Below the pieces are notes generated by a model. The model was not told where the DNA came from. It did not search any database and saw only the letters and a list, made by a program, of their open reading frames with translations. This document shows positions 55,936 to 61,656 of a stretch of DNA of 64,000 nucleotides, in pieces (within the stretch, counting starts at the first letter, position 1; every line of letters begins with the position of its first letter). Source of the DNA: an uncultured Dehalococcoidia bacterium (GTDB taxonomy: Bacteria > Chloroflexota > Dehalococcoidia > Lucifugimonadales > UBA3495); NCBI GenBank assembly GCA_964629875.1, contig CAZVRK010000008.1, positions 13,212-77,211 of the forward strand, in the 5' to 3' direction. The position numbers were made by a program, and so were the translations under genes.

Positions 55936-56312
55936 TCTACAATCTCTTCCAAAGTATCTGCTTCCTTTTTTTCACTTTTAAGAGCAGCATACATTGCACC
56001 CAGCGCGCTCATACTACCAGAATACAGTGTTAGTATTACCACCAGGATCCAAATGAAAGCAACTTTATTCGGGCTAATATCAAGCACTGCAATCAGCGCA
56101 AGTGCTATCAGTATAAAAACTGCTAGACTAAAAACTCCGATCCAGGCACCATATTTTAGCCCTCTGATAGATGGAGAATCAGTTCTATCTTTGGCAAATG
56201 AAATACCCACATAGCCGGCAATGAATGGACTAATTGGCCACGTAAAGTGAACAACTGGGATTAGAAGATATCCCACAATAATACCTAATCCTACAAGAAT
56301 CCCTATACCCAT
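55932..56312 (-). CDS. small integral membrane protein (4 predicted spans)
   Basis: 126 aa, hydrophobic. The stop overlaps the downstream MFS start (4-nt overlap), suggesting co-translation. No family recognised. Confidence 0.5.
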   Translation of the reverse strand: MGIGILVGLGIIVGYLLIPVVHFTWPISPFIAGYVGISFAKDRTDSPSIRGLKYGAWIGVFSLAVFILIALALIAVLDISPNKVAFIWILVVILTLYSGSMSALGAMYAALKSEKKEADTLEEIVD

Positions 56313-56479
56313 TAGGTTCCCTCTTTATATTATTGAACTCGCTCAAAAATGATAGGGTTTATATAACAAGCCTATGCCATATTCAAAGCACTAAATAAAT
56401 CAAGCAAAAAAGCGCGCGTGTAAGTATACTTGATTATTAGTAATATTAAGAGCCCTAACTCACATAGGGAAGAAGGAAT

Positions 56480-57184
56480 ATGTCTACGATTAACACCGAT
56501 AAAATTAAAACACTAACTTTCGATATATTTGGAACAGTTCTTGACCTAGCAGGTAGCTTAATCCCTCCTACTCAAGAATTTTTATCAGCACACAACACGA
56601 ATATATCAGGCCAAATATTTTGGCAGGACTGGAGATCTCGCCAGAGGATAGAACAGTATCAAGACAATCTTCTAATGCTGGGACACTCTGGATATCAATC
56701 TACCTGTCGAAGAGCATTTATATACTGTTTAAATCTGCACAAGATCCCGTTTGAGGAAGATGAAATAGACGACTTCATGTCTGTATACCAAGCCCTCAAA
56801 CCATACCCTGATGCCATAGAAGGACTGACAAAACTCTCAAAGAGGTATGAATTAGTGGCTTTGTCCAACGGTGAACTAAACTTCTTAGAACATCTGGTAG
56901 AAAATAACATCAGAATCCCGTTCAATGCGATATTTTCGGTACAAAGTGTCGGTCAATTCAAACCGCATCCGAGCATATATAGATACGCTGCTCAATCATT
57001 GAACCAATCTCCCGAGGAGATAATGATGGTCGCTGCACACGCATTCGACATACTGGGCGCACAAAGTTGCGGTTACAAGAGTGCATACGTGAACAGATAC
57101 GACCTGCCAACAGAGTATTCAGCGTACCAGCCAGATTTAATAGTCGAAGATTTTCTAGAATTGTCCCAAATTTTATTAGCTTAG
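56480..57184 (+). CDS. haloacid dehalogenase type II (HAD superfamily)
   Basis: FDIFGTVLD (DxxGT nucleophile motif), ALSNG, FKPHPSIY, and a C-terminal ..AHAFD..GA...G are (S)-2-haloacid dehalogenase-type blocks. Confidence 0.82.
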   Translation: MSTINTDKIKTLTFDIFGTVLDLAGSLIPPTQEFLSAHNTNISGQIFWQDWRSRQRIEQYQDNLLMLGHSGYQSTCRRAFIYCLNLHKIPFEEDEIDDFMSVYQALKPYPDAIEGLTKLSKRYELVALSNGELNFLEHLVENNIRIPFNAIFSVQSVGQFKPHPSIYRYAAQSLNQSPEEIMMVAAHAFDILGAQSCGYKSAYVNRYDLPTEYSAYQPDLIVEDFLELSQILLA

Positions 57185-57262
57185 TTACAGTATGAATACG
57201 TTGGAAACTAAGAATCTCAGGTGTTATACTTCGGTAACAAGGCGACCCTAGGAGAGTTTGCG

Positions 57263-57694
57263 ATGCGGATACCTATGAAGGTCGATTACGGCGTACGAGC
57301 ACTCATGGAGCTTGCAACCAAATACGGCCAAGGCCAAGTTCAAACAGCTGATATAGCATCAAAGCAAGGGATCCCGGAATCATACCTAGAACAACTCATG
57401 GCCGCCCTTAGCAAAGAAGGGTTAGTAGAGAGTCGCAGGGGCCCCAGAGGCGGTCACTCTCTAAGCATGGATCCTTCTGAGATAACCCTGAGCATGGTAA
57501 TGAATACTCTGGAACCAAACAGTTCCCCGCTCGATTGCATAACCTCACCTGAAGACTGCATGTTTTCAATATCCTGCGCTCAGCAGGAAATATGGAAATC
57601 GGTTGAACAATCCATACACGACGTATTGAGTAGCATCACCCTAGACAATCTCATTCAAAGGCAAAATTACTTAACCGAAACAGTAATTACCTAA
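57263..57694 (+). CDS. Rrf2-family transcriptional regulator (CymR/IscR-like)
   Basis: MRIPMKVDYGVRALMELA......IA..QGIPESYLEQLMAALSKEGLVESRRGPRGGHSL. Start set at ATG 57263 (AGGAGAG 6 nt upstream). Confidence 0.85.
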   Translation: MRIPMKVDYGVRALMELATKYGQGQVQTADIASKQGIPESYLEQLMAALSKEGLVESRRGPRGGHSLSMDPSEITLSMVMNTLEPNSSPLDCITSPEDCMFSISCAQQEIWKSVEQSIHDVLSSITLDNLIQRQNYLTETVIT

Positions 57695-57735
57695 CTGACT
57701 ACACCAACCCTGAGAAGTAAAATCCGACCATGATC

Positions 57736-57764
57736 TTGACAAGGCATCGCACCCCGGATAGACT
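57736..57764 (+). promoter_or_regulatory. near-consensus promoter of the moeB-like / cysteine synthase leader
   Basis: TTGACA (57736-57741), 17-nt spacer, TAGACT (57759-57764). Confidence 0.55.
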
Positions 57765-57774
57765 CGAGTATTAG

Positions 57775-57828
57775 ATGAACACAAAAATCACTATTTACCA
57801 ATACTGTTGTAACTGTCCCCACAAATAG
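57775..57828 (+). CDS. putative Cys-rich leader peptide (17 aa) MNTKITIYQYCCNCPHK
   Basis: ATG sits 10 nt after the -10 box, so the mRNA is essentially leaderless. TGT TGT AAC TGT at 57805-57816. The stop TAG 57826-57828 lies inside the first hairpin. Confidence 0.45.
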   Translation: MNTKITIYQYCCNCPHK

Positions 57829-57902
57829 GGACAGGTTAAACACATTAGCCAATGAGCCTGTGCCCGACCGGATTAAGATCCAGTAAGGAGCGCGGGCTTT
57901 TT
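57813..57902 (+). promoter_or_regulatory. putative transcription attenuator (alternative hairpins 1:2, 2:3, 3:4 plus U-tract)
   Basis: 1:2 is CTGTCCC (57813-19) / GGGACAG (57828-34). 2:3 is GGGACAGG (57828-35) / CCTGT-G-CCC (57857-65). 3:4 is GCCCG (57862-66) / CGGGC (57893-97) with an inner GGAT/ATCC helix, then TTTTT (57898-57902). Confidence 0.5.
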
Positions 57903-57954
57903 ACTTGTATACGGGACAATATTTCGAGGTAATATTACTGGAGGTAACCAGAAA

Positions 57955-58791
57955 ATGACACAACAATCCAAACCGCTTACTCCGGACCAAGTTAAACGAT
58001 ATAGTCGCCACATCATTATGAACGACGTCGGAAGTAGCGGACAACGAAAACTAATGGAATCGAAAGCATTAATCATTGGAGCCGGAGGTTTAGGCTCTCC
58101 AGCAGCTGTATATTTGTCCCTAGCAGGCGTTGGAACAGTTGGTATGGTGGATTTCGACGTCGTAGAACTTTCTAACTTGCAGAGGCAAATACTACACCAT
58201 ACTCCAGATGTGGGAAGGCCGAAATTAGAGTCCGGAAAAGACAATCTGTTAGCCTACAATCCCGACATAAACGTTGTTCTGCACGAAGTAAGGCTAGAGT
58301 CCGATAATGCCATGGACATCATTAGTCAGTACGATCTCGTAATTAACGGCGCTGACAACTTCGCCACTAGGTACCTTGTGAATGACGCCTGTTACCTTTT
58401 GAATAAGCCTCTAGTAGATGGCAGCATACTTATCTTTGACGGCCAGGCTACTGTGTTTGTTCCCGGCGAAGGATGTTACAGATGCTTATTCCCATCACCT
58501 CCTCCTCCTGGCATGGTTCCTAACTGTGCTGAGGCAGGAGTACTAGGCGCTCTAACAGGACTCGTGGGAAGTATACAAGCGACAGAAGCCTTAAAATACT
58601 TCTTAGGAATTGGAGAAAGCTTAATATCTAGGTTACTACTGGTAGACGCTCTATCCATGACATTCAGAGAGGTTAAGCTAAAGCGCAATCCACAGTGCCC
58701 GCTTTGTGGCGACAATCCAACGGTAACAGAATTGATTGATTACGAAATCTTCTGTGGAGTCGGCAGTCCTGAGGAAATGGGCGTCATTTAG
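57955..58791 (+). CDS. ThiF/MoeB/HesA-family adenylyltransferase (sulfur-carrier-protein activating E1-like enzyme)
   Basis: YSRHI......G..GQ.KL....ALIIGAGGLGSPAAVYLSLAGVG.VGMVDFD.VELSNLQRQ, plus zinc CxxC pairs (CYRC, CPLC). No rhodanese domain. Confidence 0.85.
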   Translation: MTQQSKPLTPDQVKRYSRHIIMNDVGSSGQRKLMESKALIIGAGGLGSPAAVYLSLAGVGTVGMVDFDVVELSNLQRQILHHTPDVGRPKLESGKDNLLAYNPDINVVLHEVRLESDNAMDIISQYDLVINGADNFATRYLVNDACYLLNKPLVDGSILIFDGQATVFVPGEGCYRCLFPSPPPPGMVPNCAEAGVLGALTGLVGSIQATEALKYFLGIGESLISRLLLVDALSMTFREVKLKRNPQCPLCGDNPTVTELIDYEIFCGVGSPEEMGVI

Positions 58792-58862
58792 ATCGCGCAT
58801 ATCGCCTAGCGCTCTATAACATCTGACTACAATACAATATAGGATGGATAAAACCTTACAAA

Positions 58863-59813
58863 ATGGTAACTAAGCAAAATTATAAAGGCATTCTGTCAAC
58901 TATCGGCAATACTCCGGAAGTAGAGTTGGAAAACCTGAGCCCTAATCCGTCCGTCAAGATAATAGCTAAGCTAGAAGGGCAAAATCCAACAGGGAGCGTC
59001 AAAGACCGCATTGCCCTAAGAATGATCGAACAAGCCGAAAGATCAGGGGATCTTAGTAAACAAAAGACAATCTTAGAACCGACTAGCGGTAATACCGGTA
59101 TATCCTTGGCTATGATAGGCAGATTGAAAGGATATAAAGTAACAGTAGTTATGCCAGAAAATGTCAGTTCCGAACGTACTCAGTTGCTGGAGGCATACGG
59201 GGCAGAAATAATATATTCAGACGGATCTCTAGGAACCAATGGATCCATAGATCGCGCTCATGAGGTTTATCAAAACCATCCTAGCGAATATATCATGATG
59301 TATCAATACGGTAACGAAGCCAATCCTGATGCCCACTACCACGGCACGGCATTAGAGATAATTGACAGGCATCCTGACTTAACCATGTTTGTAGCCGGGT
59401 TAGGGACAGGTGGGACTCTAATGGGTAACGCTAGAAGGCTAAAAGAGCATAACCCGGACGTAAAAATAGTTGCTGTCGCTCCGGAGCCTGATGATTTCAT
59501 ATCTGGATTACGTAGATTGGAGGATGGCTTTATACCTCCAATATTAGACATATCACTACTAGATGCCAGACTCATGGTCGGCAGCTACGACGCATTCCAC
59601 ACTACAAAACGCTTGTTAAGCGAAGAAGGAATTTTCGCGGGAGTTTCCTCTGGATCTGTAGTCCACGCCGCCATTAGACAATCGGAACGCATGGAACAAG
59701 GCAAAATAGTATGTTTGCTCGCAGATGGAGGTTGGAAATACTTAAGCACCAGCCTCTGGACAAAAGACTACTCCGACCTTGAGCGCGAATCAAAGGGCAA
59801 AATATGGTGGTAA
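58863..59813 (+). CDS. cysteine synthase family PLP enzyme (CysM/CysK type)
   Basis: ...KLEGQNPTGSVKDRIAL.MI (PLP Lys), TSGNTGISLA, GTGGT, the Trp-synthase-beta-like fold. Confidence 0.88.
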   Translation: MVTKQNYKGILSTIGNTPEVELENLSPNPSVKIIAKLEGQNPTGSVKDRIALRMIEQAERSGDLSKQKTILEPTSGNTGISLAMIGRLKGYKVTVVMPENVSSERTQLLEAYGAEIIYSDGSLGTNGSIDRAHEVYQNHPSEYIMMYQYGNEANPDAHYHGTALEIIDRHPDLTMFVAGLGTGGTLMGNARRLKEHNPDVKIVAVAPEPDDFISGLRRLEDGFIPPILDISLLDARLMVGSYDAFHTTKRLLSEEGIFAGVSSGSVVHAAIRQSERMEQGKIVCLLADGGWKYLSTSLWTKDYSDLERESKGKIWW

Positions 59814-59890
59814 ATATATAGATCCGGAAAGGGATGCCGCCAGGCAGTTATAATACGCCAAAGCAATCGGTACCACTGAGCCAGGAAATC

Positions 59891-59919
59891 TTGAAAGTGC
59901 ATCCCCCCAATGATATACT
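59891..59919 (+). promoter_or_regulatory. putative promoter of the nusA operon
   Basis: TTGAAA (59891-59896), 17-nt spacer, TATACT (59914-59919). Confidence 0.5.
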
Positions 59920-59938
59920 CACCGAACATAGTTTAGTA

Positions 59939-59966
59939 GAAAGCGGGTTTAGCCCGCTTTCTTGCT
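59939..59966 (+). terminator. intrinsic-terminator-like hairpin in the nusA leader (or the terminator of the cysteine synthase gene)
   Basis: GAAAGCGGG-TTTAG-CCCGCTTTC followed by TTGCT. A 9-bp stem with a U-rich 3' side, 20 nt downstream of the -10 box and about 50 nt upstream of the nusA ATG. Confidence 0.55.
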
Positions 59967-60015
59967 GGTTGGCGACTACTAAGCTAGCTAAATGTGAAAA
60001 TCGGGGAGTTTGACA

Positions 60016-61656
60016 ATGAAAAGCGACTTCTTAATCGCGTTAACTCAGCTAGCCGCAGAACGCCACCTTCCGAAAGAGCAGGTTTTATCAGCGATAGAAG
60101 TAGCTCTTGCATCAGCATTTAAGAAAGATAGCCCAGCGTCTGGGCAAAATATAACGGTTAATCTAAATCCCAATACTGGAGATGTCAGCGTCTTCGCACT
60201 GAAAACAATAGTAGAGACAGTCGAAGACTCCGATCGAGAAATTACTGTAGTCGACGCCCAGTCTATCCAGAAAGGCGCAGAGATAGGGGCGGAAATTGCG
60301 CTACCGGAGCCATTACCTCATAACGCCAGTCGAATTGCTGCCCAAACTGCCAAACAAGTCGTCCTTCAAAAACTACGAGAAGCAGAACGCGAATTATTAT
60401 ATGAAGAGTTCATACAACATAAAGACGACATAGTCTCAGGAATCATAGAACAAGTTGACGGCAACCGTGCTGTACAAATCGATCTGGGCAGAGCCCAAGC
60501 TATCATGCCCAGTGACGAACAAGTCTTTAATGAACGATATCGAAAAGGCCAACGGCTGAAAGTCTTCGTATTAGACGTCCGGACTAGTCCTAAAGGACCC
60601 GAGATACTAGTATCTCGAAGTCATAAGAATCTACTAAAAAGACTATTTGAGATTGAAGTTCCTGAAGTGTATAACGGCGTCGTTGAAATAAAAGCGATCG
60701 CTAGAGATCCCGGATTCAGAAGCAAAGTCGCAGTCAACTCCACACAAGATGGTATCGATCCCGTGGGTTCCTGTATAGGGGTTAGAGGCAATCGAATCCA
60801 AAGCATAGTTAACGAATTGCAAGGGGAAAAAATAGACGTAGTCCCTTGGGACGATGATCCCAAAGAGTTCATCGCTAAAGCCTTGAGTCCTTCTGAGGTA
60901 GTACACGTAGAGCTTGAACAAGCCGAACAAACAGCGGTAGTAGCAGTACCAGACCGCCAATTATCGCTGGCCATAGGAAGAGAGGGACAAAACGCAAGAT
61001 TGGCCGCTAGACTCGCGGGCTGGCGATTAGATATAAAAGGCCTATCAGAATGGGAAGCGTATCAAGAAACCAAACAACTTCAGACTGTTGAAGAGGCAAT
61101 TGAGTTACAGACTGAGACAGAGGAGGATACCACTCTCACTTCAGACACCGTCGATTCAGAAGCTAGCTTAGTTACTGAACTTGAAACGGAAGAGACACTA
61201 GTTCTGGAGACCACTGAGATCATAGATAGCACTGAGACTCCCCCTGAGGAACTAGTAGATAATATACAAGCATCATCTGAGATTGCCCAAGACTCACCTA
61301 GCGAGACTCAACTAATAGATGAGGATGCAGTGCTTGAAGCTCTGATTAGAGAAGAGGAAATGACTGAGGAGACGAGCCAAGCATCTGACAATCAGGCATC
61401 TACTCCTGATCAAAGTCTAAGTGTAGACAGCTTACAAGAATTTACATTAGACGACCTAAGCTCGTCGGAGACTTATATCGAAGAAGATGAGGATACCGGC
61501 ATACCTGATGCGCCTATTCTCACCCCTGATGCGGGTAAAATTCGATTTGCCGAAGATATAGTTCCGGAGCAACGAGGCACAGGCAGAAGAGACAGACGTA
61601 GCCGAAGGAGTGGGCCAGCTGCAAACACAAATCGCCGCGGAGGCCCTGGCAGATAG
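60016..61656 (+). CDS. nusA: transcription termination/antitermination factor NusA with a long acidic C-terminal tail and Arg-rich end
   Basis: NTD (MKSDFLIALTQLAAERHLPKE...), S1 (..IVSGIIEQVDG..), KH1/KH2 (..GSCIGVRGNRIQ.., ..AIGREGQNARLAARL.GW..DI). Start set at ATG 60016 (GGGGAG 7 nt upstream). Confidence 0.95.
   Translation: MKSDFLIALTQLAAERHLPKEQVLSAIEVALASAFKKDSPASGQNITVNLNPNTGDVSVFALKTIVETVEDSDREITVVDAQSIQKGAEIGAEIALPEPLPHNASRIAAQTAKQVVLQKLREAERELLYEEFIQHKDDIVSGIIEQVDGNRAVQIDLGRAQAIMPSDEQVFNERYRKGQRLKVFVLDVRTSPKGPEILVSRSHKNLLKRLFEIEVPEVYNGVVEIKAIARDPGFRSKVAVNSTQDGIDPVGSCIGVRGNRIQSIVNELQGEKIDVVPWDDDPKEFIAKALSPSEVVHVELEQAEQTAVVAVPDRQLSLAIGREGQNARLAARLAGWRLDIKGLSEWEAYQETKQLQTVEEAIELQTETEEDTTLTSDTVDSEASLVTELETEETLVLETTEIIDSTETPPEELVDNIQASSEIAQDSPSETQLIDEDAVLEALIREEEMTEETSQASDNQASTPDQSLSVDSLQEFTLDDLSSSETYIEEDEDTGIPDAPILTPDAGKIRFAEDIVPEQRGTGRRDRRSRRSGPAANTNRRGGPGR

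What the first reader, a model, noticed from the sequence alone, without database searches (positions are those of the whole stretch)
57695..57954. Cys-codon leader peptide with trp-style alternative hairpins upstream of the moeB-like and cysteine synthase genes
The 260-nt gap after the Rrf2 gene contains a near-consensus promoter (TTGACA 57736-41, N17, TAGACT 57759-64). Ten nt after the -10 box an ATG (57775) opens an 18-codon ORF, MNTKITIYQYCCNCPHK-stop, with three Cys codons in four positions (TGT TGT AAC TGT, 57805-57816). Segment 1, CTGTCCC (57813-19), overlaps the last Cys codon and pairs with segment 2, GGGACAG (57828-34), which overlaps the TAG stop. Segment 2 (GGGACAGG, 57828-35) can instead pair with segment 3, CCTGT-G-CCC (57857-65, one bulged G). 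Segment 3 supplies the 5' arm GCCCG (57862-66) of a hairpin closed by CGGGC (57893-97) and followed by TTTTT (57898-57902), 52 nt before the moeB-like ATG. This is the 1:2 / 2:3 / 3:4 logic of classical ribosome-mediated attenuation. Stalling at Cys codons would mask segment 1, allow 2:3 pairing and prevent terminator formation. A ribosome reaching the stop would cover segment 2 and allow termination. The regulated genes make cysteine through a sulfur-carrier route, so the sensed amino acid fits. Leader-peptide attenuation is established for trp, his, leu, thr, ilv and pheA. I do not recognise a characterised Cys-sensing version on a leaderless transcript in this kind of organism.
Basis: partly seen in the sequence, partly recalled or inferred. 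Interest (0 to 1): 0.7.

Follow-up and report, generated by a model that had tools for sequence, protein, structure and literature searches.

The report
Cysteine-sensing leader-peptide attenuator in SAR202 bacteria
A tiny cysteine-rich reading frame and three competing RNA hairpins ahead of two cysteine-synthesis genes form a classical ribosome-read "attenuator"; it is conserved in ocean SAR202 (Chloroflexota) bacteria, also guards their sulfite- and sulfate-reduction genes, and is a new example of a well-known type of switch.

Summary

**What is in the window**
- A consensus promoter at 57736-64.
- A 17-codon sORF at 57775-57828, MNTKITIYQYCCNCPHK*, starting 10 nt after the -10 box.
- Hairpin 1:2, alternative hairpin 2:3, and a terminator 3:4 followed by U5.

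**Conservation**
- The window is SAR202/Dehalococcoidia.
- In 79 of 80 related species the same architecture precedes the moeB-like and cysK/M pair.
- The sORF N-terminus varies freely but has no in-frame stop (0/717 triplets, against 39 and 27 of 638 out of frame).
- Codon -6 is Cys in 78/79, split TGT 42 / TGC 36. Codon -4 is Cys in 76/79.
- An AT-rich lineage rewrote all four segments and kept all three pairings and the Cys codons.

**Fold simulations**
- With a ribosome on a Cys codon, 2:3 forms in 72-73/79.
- With a ribosome on the stop codon, the terminator forms in 79/79.

**Wider distribution**
The same leader precedes sulfite reductase in two of the same genomes. It also precedes TauE-cysH and DUF2061-cysH operons in other Chloroflexota, so it looks like a regulon.

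**Novelty**
Cys-sensing leader sORFs are already known in mycobacteria and predicted for Rhodobacterales cysS. This is a new member of a known kind. No experiment supports it yet.

The parts
57736..57741 (+). -35 hexamer TTGACA
   Evidence: Exact TTGACA is found in all 80 leaders, with a matching -10 box at 16-18 nt in 79 of them. Beyond the -10 box, it is the only conserved block in the promoter region.
57759..57764 (+). -10 hexamer TAGACT, with a 17-nt spacer
   Evidence: The family consensus is TA(G/A/C)ACT at 17-18 nt from the -35 box.
57775..57828 (+). Leader sORF: 17 codons plus TAG, MNTKITIYQYCCNCPHK*. There is no Shine-Dalgarno, and the ATG lies 10 nt after the -10 box.
   Evidence: Family-wide, the ORF is 15-18 codons in 66 of 78. 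In the variable N-terminal part there are 0 of 717 in-frame stop triplets, against 39 and 27 of 638 in the other two frames.
57805..57816 (+). Regulatory Cys codons: TGT TGT AAC TGT (codons 11, 12 and 14)
   Evidence: Family-wide, codon -6 is Cys in 78/79 (TGT 42, TGC 36), codon -4 is Cys in 76/79 and codon -8 in 29/79. No conserved pairing explains the invariance of codon -6.
57813..57819 (+). Segment 1 (CUGUCCC), the 5' arm of the anti-antiterminator hairpin. It overlaps the last Cys codon and the Pro codon.
   Evidence: hairpin -12.5 kcal/mol. Helix 1:2 pairs in 85-89% of cells across the family, against 33-53% when slid.
57828..57837 (+). Segment 2 (GGGACAGGUU). It starts with the G of the stop codon and pairs either with segment 1 or with segment 3.
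   Evidence: In the family consensus, TAG is followed by GGGGCAGGC.
57854..57865 (+). Segment 3 (GAGCCUGUGCCC). Its positions 57855-65 form the 3' arm of antiterminator 2:3, with G57862 bulged. It is also the 5' arm of the terminator.
   Evidence: 2:3 is -13.7 kcal/mol. Helix 2:3 pairs in 87-92% of cells across the family, against 30-50% when slid, on an alignment that was not fitted to it.
57887..57899 (+). Segment 4 (GG.GCGCGGGCUU), the 3' arm of the terminator
   Evidence: terminator hairpin -24.9 kcal/mol. Compensatory G-C to A-U changes occur at one pair in 7-8 species.
57898..57902 (+). U-tract (TTTTT) of the intrinsic terminator
   Evidence: A U-run follows the stem in about 77 of 80 leaders.
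57940..57944 (+). Shine-Dalgarno GGAGG of the first regulated gene
   Evidence: A GGAGG or AGGAGG precedes the moeB-like start in the related loci.
57955..58791 (+). First regulated gene: a MoeB/ThiF-family adenylyltransferase of 278 aa, with no rhodanese domain
   Evidence: NCBIfam NF004281 scores 291 bits against a cutoff of 266, and Pfam ThiF matches at 1e-80.
58863..59813 (+). Second regulated gene: a cysteine synthase of the CysK/CysM subfamily, 316 aa
   Evidence: TIGR01136 cysKM scores 356 bits against a cutoff of 344, and Pfam PALP matches. It lies directly downstream of moeB in 80 of 80 loci.
57221..57694 (+). Context only: an Rrf2-family regulator gene with a C-x6-C-x5-C motif. It is not shown to act on this promoter.
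   Evidence: It lies directly upstream in 61 of 80 loci, and the leader is also present in the loci that lack it. No conserved operator-like block occurs near the promoter.

Best explanation
This is a ribosome-mediated (leader-peptide) transcription attenuator that senses charged tRNA-Cys. It controls the moeB-like and cysK/M operon of a SAR202 (Dehalococcoidia, Chloroflexota) bacterium.

Proposed sequence of events:
1. A strong, apparently constitutive promoter starts transcription a few nt before the ATG of a 17-codon sORF that has no Shine-Dalgarno.
2. When cysteine is plentiful, the ribosome reads through the Cys codons to the TAG. There it covers segment 2. After release, segments 1 and 2 pair. 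Either way segment 3 is free to pair with segment 4, and the terminator plus U-tract stops RNA polymerase about 50 nt before moeB.
3. When Cys-tRNA is scarce, the ribosome stalls with a Cys codon (57805-16) in its A site. It then covers segment 1 but not segment 2.
4. Segment 2 pairs with segment 3 as soon as segment 3 is made, the terminator cannot form, and the operon is transcribed.

Shown here: the sequence features, the alternative pairings and their energies, their conservation, and selection on the reading frame and on the Cys codons.

Inferred: the transcription start site, translation of the sORF, stalling, and the kinetic choice between 2:3 and 3:4.
For: - Anatomy and energetics in the window match the model. 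The three hairpins are -12.5, -13.7 and -24.9 kcal/mol, and the leader folds at z = -4.5 against shuffles.
- In the window, masking the footprint of a ribosome on any of the three Cys codons makes the nascent RNA fold into 2:3. Masking the footprint at the stop codon leaves only the terminator.
- Across 79 orthologous leaders, 2:3 forms in 72-73 with a Cys-stalled ribosome. The terminator forms in 79 of 79 with a ribosome at the stop codon.
- 79 of 80 species with MoeB 81-98% identical carry the element.
- The reading frame is under selection. There are no in-frame stops in 717 variable codons, against 39 and 27 of 638 out of frame. The ATG sits 9-11 nt after the -10 box in most loci.
- Cys codon -6 is kept in 78/79 with TGT and TGC used about equally, and it is not part of a conserved helix.
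- The Pro and Thr codons after the Cys codons are imposed by the stem. The AT-rich lineage L056/L059 replaced all four segments (AUCCUCC / GAGGGUA / CACCCUCC / GAGGGUG-UUU), lost the conserved Pro/Thr codon pattern (L059 has no Pro at all), and kept C-x-C and all three pairings.
- All three helices pair in 85-92% of cells, against 30-55% for slid controls, and show some compensatory changes.
- The same leader precedes sulfite reductase in the genomes that carry L002 and L035. It also precedes TauE-cysH and DUF2061-cysH operons in other Chloroflexota. This ties the Cys codons to sulfur assimilation rather than to one gene.
- No Rfam family matches, so a known riboswitch or T-box does not explain the region.
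Against: - There are no transcript, ribosome-profiling or reporter data. SAR202 is uncultured.
- At equilibrium the terminator (-24.9) beats the antiterminator (-13.7), so read-through must be kinetic. With a Cys-stalled ribosome, the full-length MFE keeps 2:3 in only 23-29 of 79 leaders.
- Covariation is modest because the segments are highly conserved. Most of the support is conserved complementarity, not compensatory change.
- Most family members have only two Cys codons, and these are separated by one codon. One member (L045) has a single Cys codon.
- The U-tract is short (5 U), and in three loci it is degenerate or interrupted.
- The 5' end of the transcript is unknown, and so is how a sORF without a Shine-Dalgarno is initiated.
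Confidence: 0.85

Rival explanations
1. The sORF senses cysteine, but the output is not intrinsic termination. Ribosome position would control translation initiation of moeB by sequestering its Shine-Dalgarno, as in mycobacterial polycysteine sORFs, or it would control Rho access.
For: The only experimentally dissected Cys-sensing sORF works translationally (10.1101/834739). In the present leaders the terminator is thermodynamically dominant even with a stalled ribosome.
Against: A GC-rich stem followed directly by a U-run is conserved in about 77 of 80 leaders, and its 5' arm is exactly the sequence that pairs with segment 2. The distance from the terminator to the moeB Shine-Dalgarno varies from about 40 to more than 200 nt with no conserved sequence. 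A conserved SD-sequestering helix is therefore unlikely.
Confidence: 0.06
2. The sORF encodes a functional Cys-rich micropeptide, for example a metal-binding peptide or a RiPP precursor processed by the adjacent ThiF-like enzyme. The hairpin would merely set the mRNA ratio, as in microcin C operons (that comparison is from memory).
For: The C-terminal motif C-x-C-P-x-T is conserved in most members. The neighbouring gene is an E1/ThiF-type adenylyltransferase.
Against: - The N-terminus is unconstrained.
- The Pro and Thr codons coincide with stem nucleotides, and the conserved Pro/Thr pattern breaks down in the lineage that re-coded the stems (L056/L059).
- The same leader precedes sir and cysH operons that have no ThiF-like gene.
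- The MoeB-like protein is full-length similar to MoeB/MoeZ and has no extra peptide-binding domain.
- Segment 1 is mirrored by segment 3, which no peptide function would require.
Confidence: 0.03
3. It is a structured cis-regulatory RNA (a riboswitch or a protein-binding leader), and the short ORF is incidental.
For: The hairpins are well conserved, and the RNA folds much better than shuffles.
Against: - Stops are absent only in the sORF frame.
- The ATG lies at a fixed distance from the -10 box.
- Cys codon -6 varies synonymously and lies outside any conserved helix.
- The stop codon is always placed at the first base of segment 2.
- No Rfam family matches.
- There is no conserved ligand-pocket-like junction; the segment 2 to segment 3 spacer and the inner hairpin are unconserved in sequence.
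Confidence: 0.03
4. The upstream Rrf2 (IscR/CymR-like) protein regulates the operon mainly at transcription initiation. The hairpin would be only the Rrf2 gene's terminator or a constitutive one.
For: Rrf2 lies directly upstream in 61 of 80 loci. CymR-type Rrf2 proteins control cysteine metabolism in Firmicutes (NCBIfam NF047409 matches at 5e-27, below its cutoff).
Against: - The terminator lies downstream of a consensus promoter, not between Rrf2 and that promoter.
- The leader is present in the 19 loci where Rrf2 is not directly upstream, 12 of which show no Rrf2 match at all, and also in sir and cysH loci.
- No conserved operator-like block lies around the promoter.
- Rrf2 control could still act in addition to attenuation; it does not replace it.
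Confidence: 0.03

Closest known systems
Classical leader-peptide transcription attenuators of amino-acid operons (trp, his, leu, thr, ilv, pheA in Proteobacteria; trp and ilvB in Actinobacteria)
   Same: - A promoter-proximal sORF with clustered codons for the pathway's end product.
- A 1:2 anti-antiterminator, a 2:3 antiterminator and a 3:4 intrinsic terminator, with segment 1 overlapping the regulatory codons and the stop codon next to segment 2.
- A similar order of hairpin energies: the E. coli trp values of about -11, -12 and -20 kcal/mol are recalled from memory, against -12.5, -13.7 and -24.9 here.
   Different: - The sensed amino acid is cysteine.
- The host is Chloroflexota, a phylum for which I found no described attenuator.
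- The sORF has no Shine-Dalgarno and starts about 10 nt after the -10 box.
- The regulatory codons are usually only two or three and are interleaved (C-x-C), not a tandem run.
- There is no sequence homology to any Rfam leader family.
Mycobacterial polycysteine leaderless sORFs, the 'Cys ribulon' (Canestrari et al. 2020, bioRxiv 10.1101/834739 / Mol Microbiol 114:93)
   Same: - Cys codons near the C-terminus of an unannotated sORF at the very 5' end of the transcript.
- Downstream cysteine and sulfur metabolism genes.
- Several operons per genome carry such sORFs, giving regulon-like coordination by ribosome stalling (compared).
   Different: - The mycobacterial Ms5788A acts by freeing a sequestered ribosome-binding site, which is translational attenuation without a terminator. 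Here a conserved intrinsic terminator and antiterminator are present.
- The mycobacterial sORFs need at least two consecutive Cys codons and are truly leaderless. Here the consensus is C-x-C, and a short 5' UTR is likely.
- The phylum differs and there is no sequence similarity.
uORFC-8-2 motif upstream of cysS in Rhodobacterales (Brewer et al. 2021, PMC8632094)
   Same: A predicted ribosome-mediated attenuator with a conserved AUG, Cys codons around positions 14-15 of the peptide that lie within the first stem, and a terminator with a U-run.
   Different: - It controls the tRNA synthetase gene rather than biosynthetic genes.
- It is alphaproteobacterial.
- Its Cys codons are tandem.
- As described it has two stems, with no 2:3 alternative reported.
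- The sequence is unrelated, and nothing in Rfam matches the window.
Candidate Cys leader peptides upstream of actinobacterial cys and cbs operons (Seliverstov et al. 2005, PMC1262725)
   Same: Short ORFs with runs of Cys codons next to the stop codon, upstream of cysteine biosynthesis genes.
   Different: No terminator or alternative hairpins were found there, and a Rho-dependent mechanism was suggested. Here the complete hairpin set is conserved.

Membership tests
Leader-peptide (ribosome-mediated) transcription attenuator | A short ORF near the 5' end of the transcript that is enriched in codons for the regulating amino acid | tested here: met
   The window sORF has 3 Cys in 17 codons. Family sORFs are 14.5% Cys, against 0.93% in the window's long ORFs. 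Codons -6 and -4 are Cys in 78 and 76 of 79.
Leader-peptide (ribosome-mediated) transcription attenuator | The sORF is under selection as a reading frame | tested here: met
   There are 0 of 717 in-frame stop triplets, against 39 and 27 of 638 in the other frames. Codon -6 uses TGT 42 times and TGC 36 times. The spacing from the -10 box to the ATG is fixed.
Leader-peptide (ribosome-mediated) transcription attenuator | An intrinsic terminator (GC-rich stem plus U-run) between the sORF and the first structural gene | tested here: met
   The stem spans 57854-57899 at -24.9 kcal/mol and is followed by U5. The family median is -27.7 kcal/mol.
Leader-peptide (ribosome-mediated) transcription attenuator | An antiterminator (2:3) that is mutually exclusive with the terminator, and an anti-antiterminator (1:2) that is mutually exclusive with 2:3 | tested here: met
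   The shared segments are 57828-37 and 57854-65. Family-wide, 85-92% of cells pair for all three helices, against 30-55% when slid. The re-coded lineage keeps all three pairings.
Leader-peptide (ribosome-mediated) transcription attenuator | Geometry: a ribosome stalled on the regulatory codons masks segment 1 but not segment 2, and a ribosome at the stop codon masks segment 2 | tested here: met
   Footprint-mask folding gives 2:3 in 72-73 of 79 leaders when stalled at Cys, and the terminator in 79 of 79 when at the stop codon. The assumed footprint of 12 nt 3' of the first A-site base comes from general knowledge.
Leader-peptide (ribosome-mediated) transcription attenuator | The regulated genes make or supply the sensed amino acid | tested here: met
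   The CysK/M cysteine synthase passes the TIGR01136 cutoff. Sister copies of the leader precede sulfite reductase and CysH operons.
Leader-peptide (ribosome-mediated) transcription attenuator | Read-through rises when the cognate charged tRNA is limiting | not testable with these tools
   This needs term-seq, reporter assays or in-vitro coupled assays.
Mycobacterial polycysteine leaderless sORF attenuators | The transcript begins at the start codon (truly leaderless) | not testable with these tools
   The ATG lies 9-11 nt after the -10 hexamer in most loci. That suggests a UTR of 2-4 nt, but the transcription start site is unknown.
Mycobacterial polycysteine leaderless sORF attenuators | At least two consecutive Cys codons | tested here: not met
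   The window does have two consecutive Cys codons (CC-N-C), but the family consensus is C-x-C. Codon -5 is never Cys and codon -7 is Cys in only 5 of 79.
Mycobacterial polycysteine leaderless sORF attenuators | Translational attenuation by sequestering the ribosome-binding site, with no intrinsic terminator | tested here: not met
   A conserved terminator with a U-run is present. The spacer between the terminator and the Shine-Dalgarno is unconserved.
uORFC-8-2 motif (Rhodobacterales cysS) | Location upstream of cysS in Rhodobacterales, with tandem Cys codons at about positions 14-15 | tested here: not met
   The host is Dehalococcoidia, and the downstream genes are moeB-like and cysK/M. The Cys codons are interleaved.
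Known RNA families (T-box, SAM and other riboswitches, Rfam leader families) | A match to an Rfam covariance model | tested here: not met
   There were no hits at gathering thresholds across the 64-kb window. Only a chance snoRNA-like hit (E = 5.7) appeared in 57600-58050.

The most novel reading that the evidence does not exclude
The leader is one copy of a Chloroflexota-wide 'Cys ribulon'. In this reading, sulfur assimilation and cysteine synthesis (sir, tauE-cysH, DUF2061-cysH, moeB-cysK/M) in SAR202 and other Dehalococcoidia are coordinated mainly by ribosome stalling on near-leaderless sORFs, not by a transcription factor.

A second subtype is found upstream of cysH and sir in other Chloroflexota, once in tandem. 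Its peptide M-R-F-x-D-D-L-F-H-L-C is conserved at the amino-acid level, and it often has a single Cys codon. In the novel reading, this subtype senses cysteine through a nascent-peptide-assisted arrest, not through simple codon-run starvation.
Probability: 0.2. Interest if true: 0.7.

Novelty: new member of a known kind. Interest (0 to 1): 0.45.

Why it matters
- It extends classical leader-peptide attenuation to Chloroflexota. It also gives a complete terminator/antiterminator example that senses cysteine; the described Cys-sensing sORFs act translationally or are only predicted.
- SAR202 is an abundant, uncultured deep-ocean clade whose sulfur metabolism is of ecological interest.
- The leader could serve as a culture-independent read-out. 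The ratio of metatranscriptome reads before and after the U-tract would report cysteine limitation in situ.
- The covariance model built here (R1) finds further copies, so the regulon can be mapped.
- The peptide-conserved subtype, if it proves to be an arrest peptide, would be of wider mechanistic interest.

Tried and rejected
- **Rfam.** I scanned the whole window at gathering thresholds and the region at E <= 10. Nothing relevant matched.
- **Second copy nearby.** The covariance model found only one copy per locus in the 64-kb window and the 80 loci. The minus-strand hits are the palindromic terminators.
- **Sulfur-carrier gene.** I looked for a ThiS/MoaD/CysO-like ORF ending in GG beside the operon in the window and in all 80 loci. 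None was convincing, so the 'sulfur-carrier route' stays an inference.
- **Structural explanation for Cys codon -6.** I tested whether it pairs with an extension of helix 1:2. Only 44% of cells pair, the same as slid controls, so I rejected this.
- **Rrf2 operator.** I looked for a conserved operator around the promoter. Only the -35 and -10 boxes are conserved.
- **Shuffled-duplex z-scores.** Mononucleotide-shuffled duplex z-scores for 1:2 and 2:3 were only about -2. C-rich against G-rich segments pair well even when shuffled, so I did not rely on this test.
- **RiPP or micropeptide reading, and Rrf2-terminator reading.** I considered both and rejected them; the reasons are given under the rival explanations.
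- **Metagenome pattern scan.** About half of the 20 hits were chance matches inside unrelated sequence.
- **Literature.** Searches for a Chloroflexi or SAR202 Cys attenuator found nothing.
Full report
**Observation.**
- Promoter: TTGACA (57736-41), a 17-nt spacer and TAGACT (57759-64). This is the best promoter-like site in 56000-60200.
- sORF: the ATG at 57775, ten nt after the -10 box, opens MNTKITIYQYCCNCPHK and ends at TAG 57826-28. The Cys codons are at 57805-07, 57808-10 and 57814-16.
- Fold of 57771-57905: -40.7 kcal/mol, against -24.7 +/- 3.6 for dinucleotide shuffles (z = -4.5). It contains hairpin 1:2 (57813-19 with 57828-34).
Positions 57854-65 pair with 57887-88 and 57890-99 around a small inner hairpin, and the run TTTTT at 57898-57902 follows.
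- Folded separately, 1:2 is -12.5 kcal/mol, 2:3 is -13.7 and 3:4 is -24.9. The 2:3 helix pairs 57828-37 with 57855-61 and 57863-65, with G57862 bulged.

**Organism and genes.** The MoeB-like protein has relatives of 81-98% identity in 80 species-level genomes. All are labelled SAR202 cluster, Dehalococcoidia or Chloroflexota.
- The first gene downstream of the leader is a MoeB/ThiF-family adenylyltransferase (NF004281 above cutoff).
- The second is a CysK/CysM-subfamily cysteine synthase (TIGR01136 above cutoff).
- The upstream gene is an Rrf2-family regulator, IscR/CymR-like but below the equivalog cutoffs.
- CysK/M follows MoeB in 80 of 80 loci. Rrf2 is directly upstream in 61 of 80.
- No ThiS/CysO-like carrier ORF is adjacent in any of them. 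The 'sulfur-carrier route' is therefore an inference from the gene pairing.

**Conservation of the sORF.** Upstream of the orthologous moeB-like genes, 79 of 80 loci carry the same arrangement:
- TTGACA, 17-18 nt, then TA(G/A/C)ACT.
- A spacer that is 9-11 nt in most loci and has no Shine-Dalgarno.
- An ATG (rarely TTG) and an ORF of 15-18 codons in 66 of 78.
- An ORF ending of ...TGY-NNN-TGT-CCN-NNN-ACA-TAG.

Locus L035 lacks the element altogether. The N-terminal part differs freely between species yet contains no in-frame stop: 0 of 717 triplets, against 39 and 27 of 638 in the other two frames.

The Cys codons behave as follows:
- Codon -6 is Cys in 78/79, with TGT 42 and TGC 36. That is the signature of selection on the amino acid or codon class.
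- Codon -4 is Cys in 76/79, almost always TGT because its U lies in the stem.
- Codon -8 is Cys in 29/79.

The near-invariant TG of codon -6 is not explained by an extension of helix 1:2, which pairs in 44% of cells, the same as slid controls. A comparable sORF occurs by chance 0.005 times per 330 nt elsewhere in these loci. Cys is 0.93% of codons in the window's long ORFs and 14.5% of the sORF codons. Around the promoter only the -35 and -10 boxes are conserved, with no operator-like block.

**Conservation of the RNA logic.** The consensus segments are as follows:
- Segment 1: CCUGUCCC.
- Segment 2: GGGGCAGGC, beginning at or right after the G of TAG.
- Segment 3: GCCUGCGCCC.
- Segment 4: GGGCGCAGGY, followed by a U-run.

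On the MAFFT alignment A1, helices 1:2 and 3:4 pair in 85% of cells and 2:3 in 87%. Slid controls give 30-55%. On the covariance-model alignment A3, which was fitted to 1:2 and 3:4 but not to 2:3, the values are 87.6% and 91.7%.

Compensatory changes exist. One example is G-C to A-U at one terminator pair in 7-8 species, and there are several in 2:3. They are few because each segment has to satisfy two partners. A recurrent A-to-G change in segments 2 and 4 is absorbed by U in segments 1 and 3.

The strongest single argument comes from the AT-rich lineage L056/L059. It uses entirely different segments (AUCCUCC / GAGGGUA / CACCCUCC / GAGGGUG-UUU) yet retains 1:2, 2:3, 3:4, the stop-codon position and the C-x-C codons. 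The conserved Pro/Thr codon pattern breaks down there (L059 has no Pro at all). So the Pro and Thr codons are imposed by the stem, and the Cys codons are not.

**Simulation of ribosome positions.** I masked the mRNA up to 12 nt beyond the first A-site base.
- In the window, a ribosome with any of the three Cys codons in its A site leaves segment 2 free, and the nascent RNA (before segment 4 is made) folds into 2:3. A ribosome on the stop codon covers segment 2, and only the terminator forms.
- Across 79 leaders, 2:3 forms in 72-73 when the ribosome is stalled at Cys, and the terminator forms in 79 of 79 when it is at the stop codon. Free RNA shows 1:2 plus the terminator in 67-68.
- At equilibrium the terminator usually wins even with a stalled ribosome: 2:3 persists in only 23-29 of 79. 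Read-through must therefore be a kinetic decision, as in classical attenuators.

**Beyond this operon.** Model R1 finds only one copy in the 64-kb window. A metagenome pattern scan for segments 2 and 3 returned additional moeB-type leaders. It also returned the same architecture in front of other genes:
- TauE/SafE permease plus CysH PAPS/APS reductase, in L082 and L098. CysH passes the NF002537 cutoff.
- NirA/Sir-type sulfite reductase, in L085 and L090/L096.

Sulfite-reductase homologues are labelled Dehalococcoidia or Chloroflexota. Two of them lie on contigs whose lengths match those that carry moeB loci L002 and L035.
- Both have the leader just upstream of sir.
- L101 3868-3974 has the sORF MICTAVSACFCTCPPT*.
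- L102 3760-3871 has MPEPITFNLCRCFCTCPPT*.
- The genome of L035, which lacks the moeB leader, still has the sir leader.

Further copies precede TauE-cysH or DUF2061-cysH in other Chloroflexota contigs. L082 has two leaders in tandem. The element is therefore a regulon-type signal for sulfur assimilation and cysteine synthesis, which independently supports cysteine as the sensed quantity.

**A second subtype (side observation).** The leaders in L082 (both copies), L085, L098, L104-L106, L109-L110, L112 and L114, upstream of cysH (and sir in L085), encode M-R-F-x-D-D-L-F-H-L-C-x-(C/R)-... Half of them have only one Cys codon. Among 10 distinct sequences, Arg is encoded by AGA, CGA, CGG and AGG. 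Leu is encoded by five codons, and Asp, Phe and His by two each. The peptide itself is therefore under selection. This contrasts with the window's subtype and is unexplained; it may reflect nascent-chain-assisted stalling.

**Mechanism, with status of each step.**
- Shown by sequence and comparison: the promoter, the sORF as a selected reading frame, the selected Cys codons, the three mutually exclusive helices, the terminator with its U-run, and the association with cysteine and sulfur genes.
- Inferred: the transcription start a few nt before the ATG, Shine-Dalgarno-independent initiation, stalling on Cys codons when Cys-tRNA is scarce, co-transcriptional formation of 2:3 that prevents termination, and termination when the ribosome reaches the stop codon or never loads.

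**Comparison with what is known.**
- The logic is that of trp/his-type attenuators.
- Cys-sensing sORFs are already described. Mycobacterial polycysteine leaderless sORFs were shown experimentally; they act translationally and have no terminator (10.1101/834739).
- The uORFC-8-2 motif upstream of Rhodobacterales cysS was predicted, with a terminator (PMC8632094).
- Cys leader peptides without terminators were predicted in Actinobacteria (PMC1262725).
- The present family is not a member of any of these. The phylum, the regulated genes, the Cys-codon pattern and, compared with mycobacteria, the output mechanism all differ.
- I found no paper on a Chloroflexi or SAR202 version and no Rfam family that matches.

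**Verdict.** It is a new member of a known kind. The leaderless initiation, the sulfur-carrier pathway and the claim of no precedent need the corrections given above.

Noticed in passing
That makes at least two attenuator-controlled sulfur operons per genome. The genome of L035 has lost the moeB leader but keeps the sir leader.
   Followed up: partly
L082 488-601 and 675-787; L085 2985-3101; L098 247-360; L104 3275-3384; L105 3300-3409; L106 1332-1444; L109 2044-2153; L110 2022-2131; L112 2058-2171; L114 2050-2165: A second leader subtype sits upstream of TauE-cysH, DUF2061-cysH, cysH or sir. Its peptide M-R-F-x-D-D-L-F-H-L-C is conserved at the amino-acid level: Arg uses 4 codons and Leu uses 5, while the residues stay invariant. 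Often it has only one Cys codon. This suggests a role for the nascent peptide, and it remains unexplained.
   Followed up: partly
L082 430-800: Two complete leader units, each an sORF plus a terminator, stand in tandem ahead of the TauE-cysH operon. The second unit has no obvious promoter of its own.
   Followed up: no
L056 3857-3968; L059 3868-3972: An AT-rich lineage replaced the sequence of all four stem segments and kept the architecture and the C-x-C codons. This is a natural whole-structure compensatory experiment.
   Followed up: yes
L035 3600-4000; L051 3793-3914; L045 3842-3956; L014 3762-3875: Natural variants exist. L035 has no leader at all. L051 has a 2-nt deletion that frameshifts the sORF. 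L045 keeps only one Cys codon. L014 has TAG changed to CAG, which extends the sORF by four codons into segment 2.
   Followed up: no
L103 1875-2969; L104 1573-3384; L105 1589-3409; L109 and L110 800-2150: Transposase genes (IS110, DDE_Tnp_1 and DDE_Tnp_1_4 families) lie right next to cysH leaders. In L103 one lies between the leader and the DUF2061-cysH genes.
   Followed up: no
window 57221-57694: The Rrf2 regulator carries a C-x6-C-x5-C motif (CITSPEDCMFSISC), typical of Fe-S-binding IscR-like proteins. It is syntenic with the leader in 61 of 80 loci, but no conserved operator was seen near the leader promoter.
   Followed up: partly
window 57955-59813 and all 80 related loci: A MoeB/ThiF adenylyltransferase and a CysK/M gene are always paired, but no ThiS/CysO-type carrier gene or JAMM protease gene is adjacent. 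The sulfur donor for this cysteine synthase is unresolved.
   Followed up: partly
A1 columns 19 and 45 (window 57811 and about 57837): The base before segment 1 and the base after segment 2 covary (G-C in 20 sequences, A-U in 19). In about half of the species this extends helix 1:2 by one pair.
   Followed up: no
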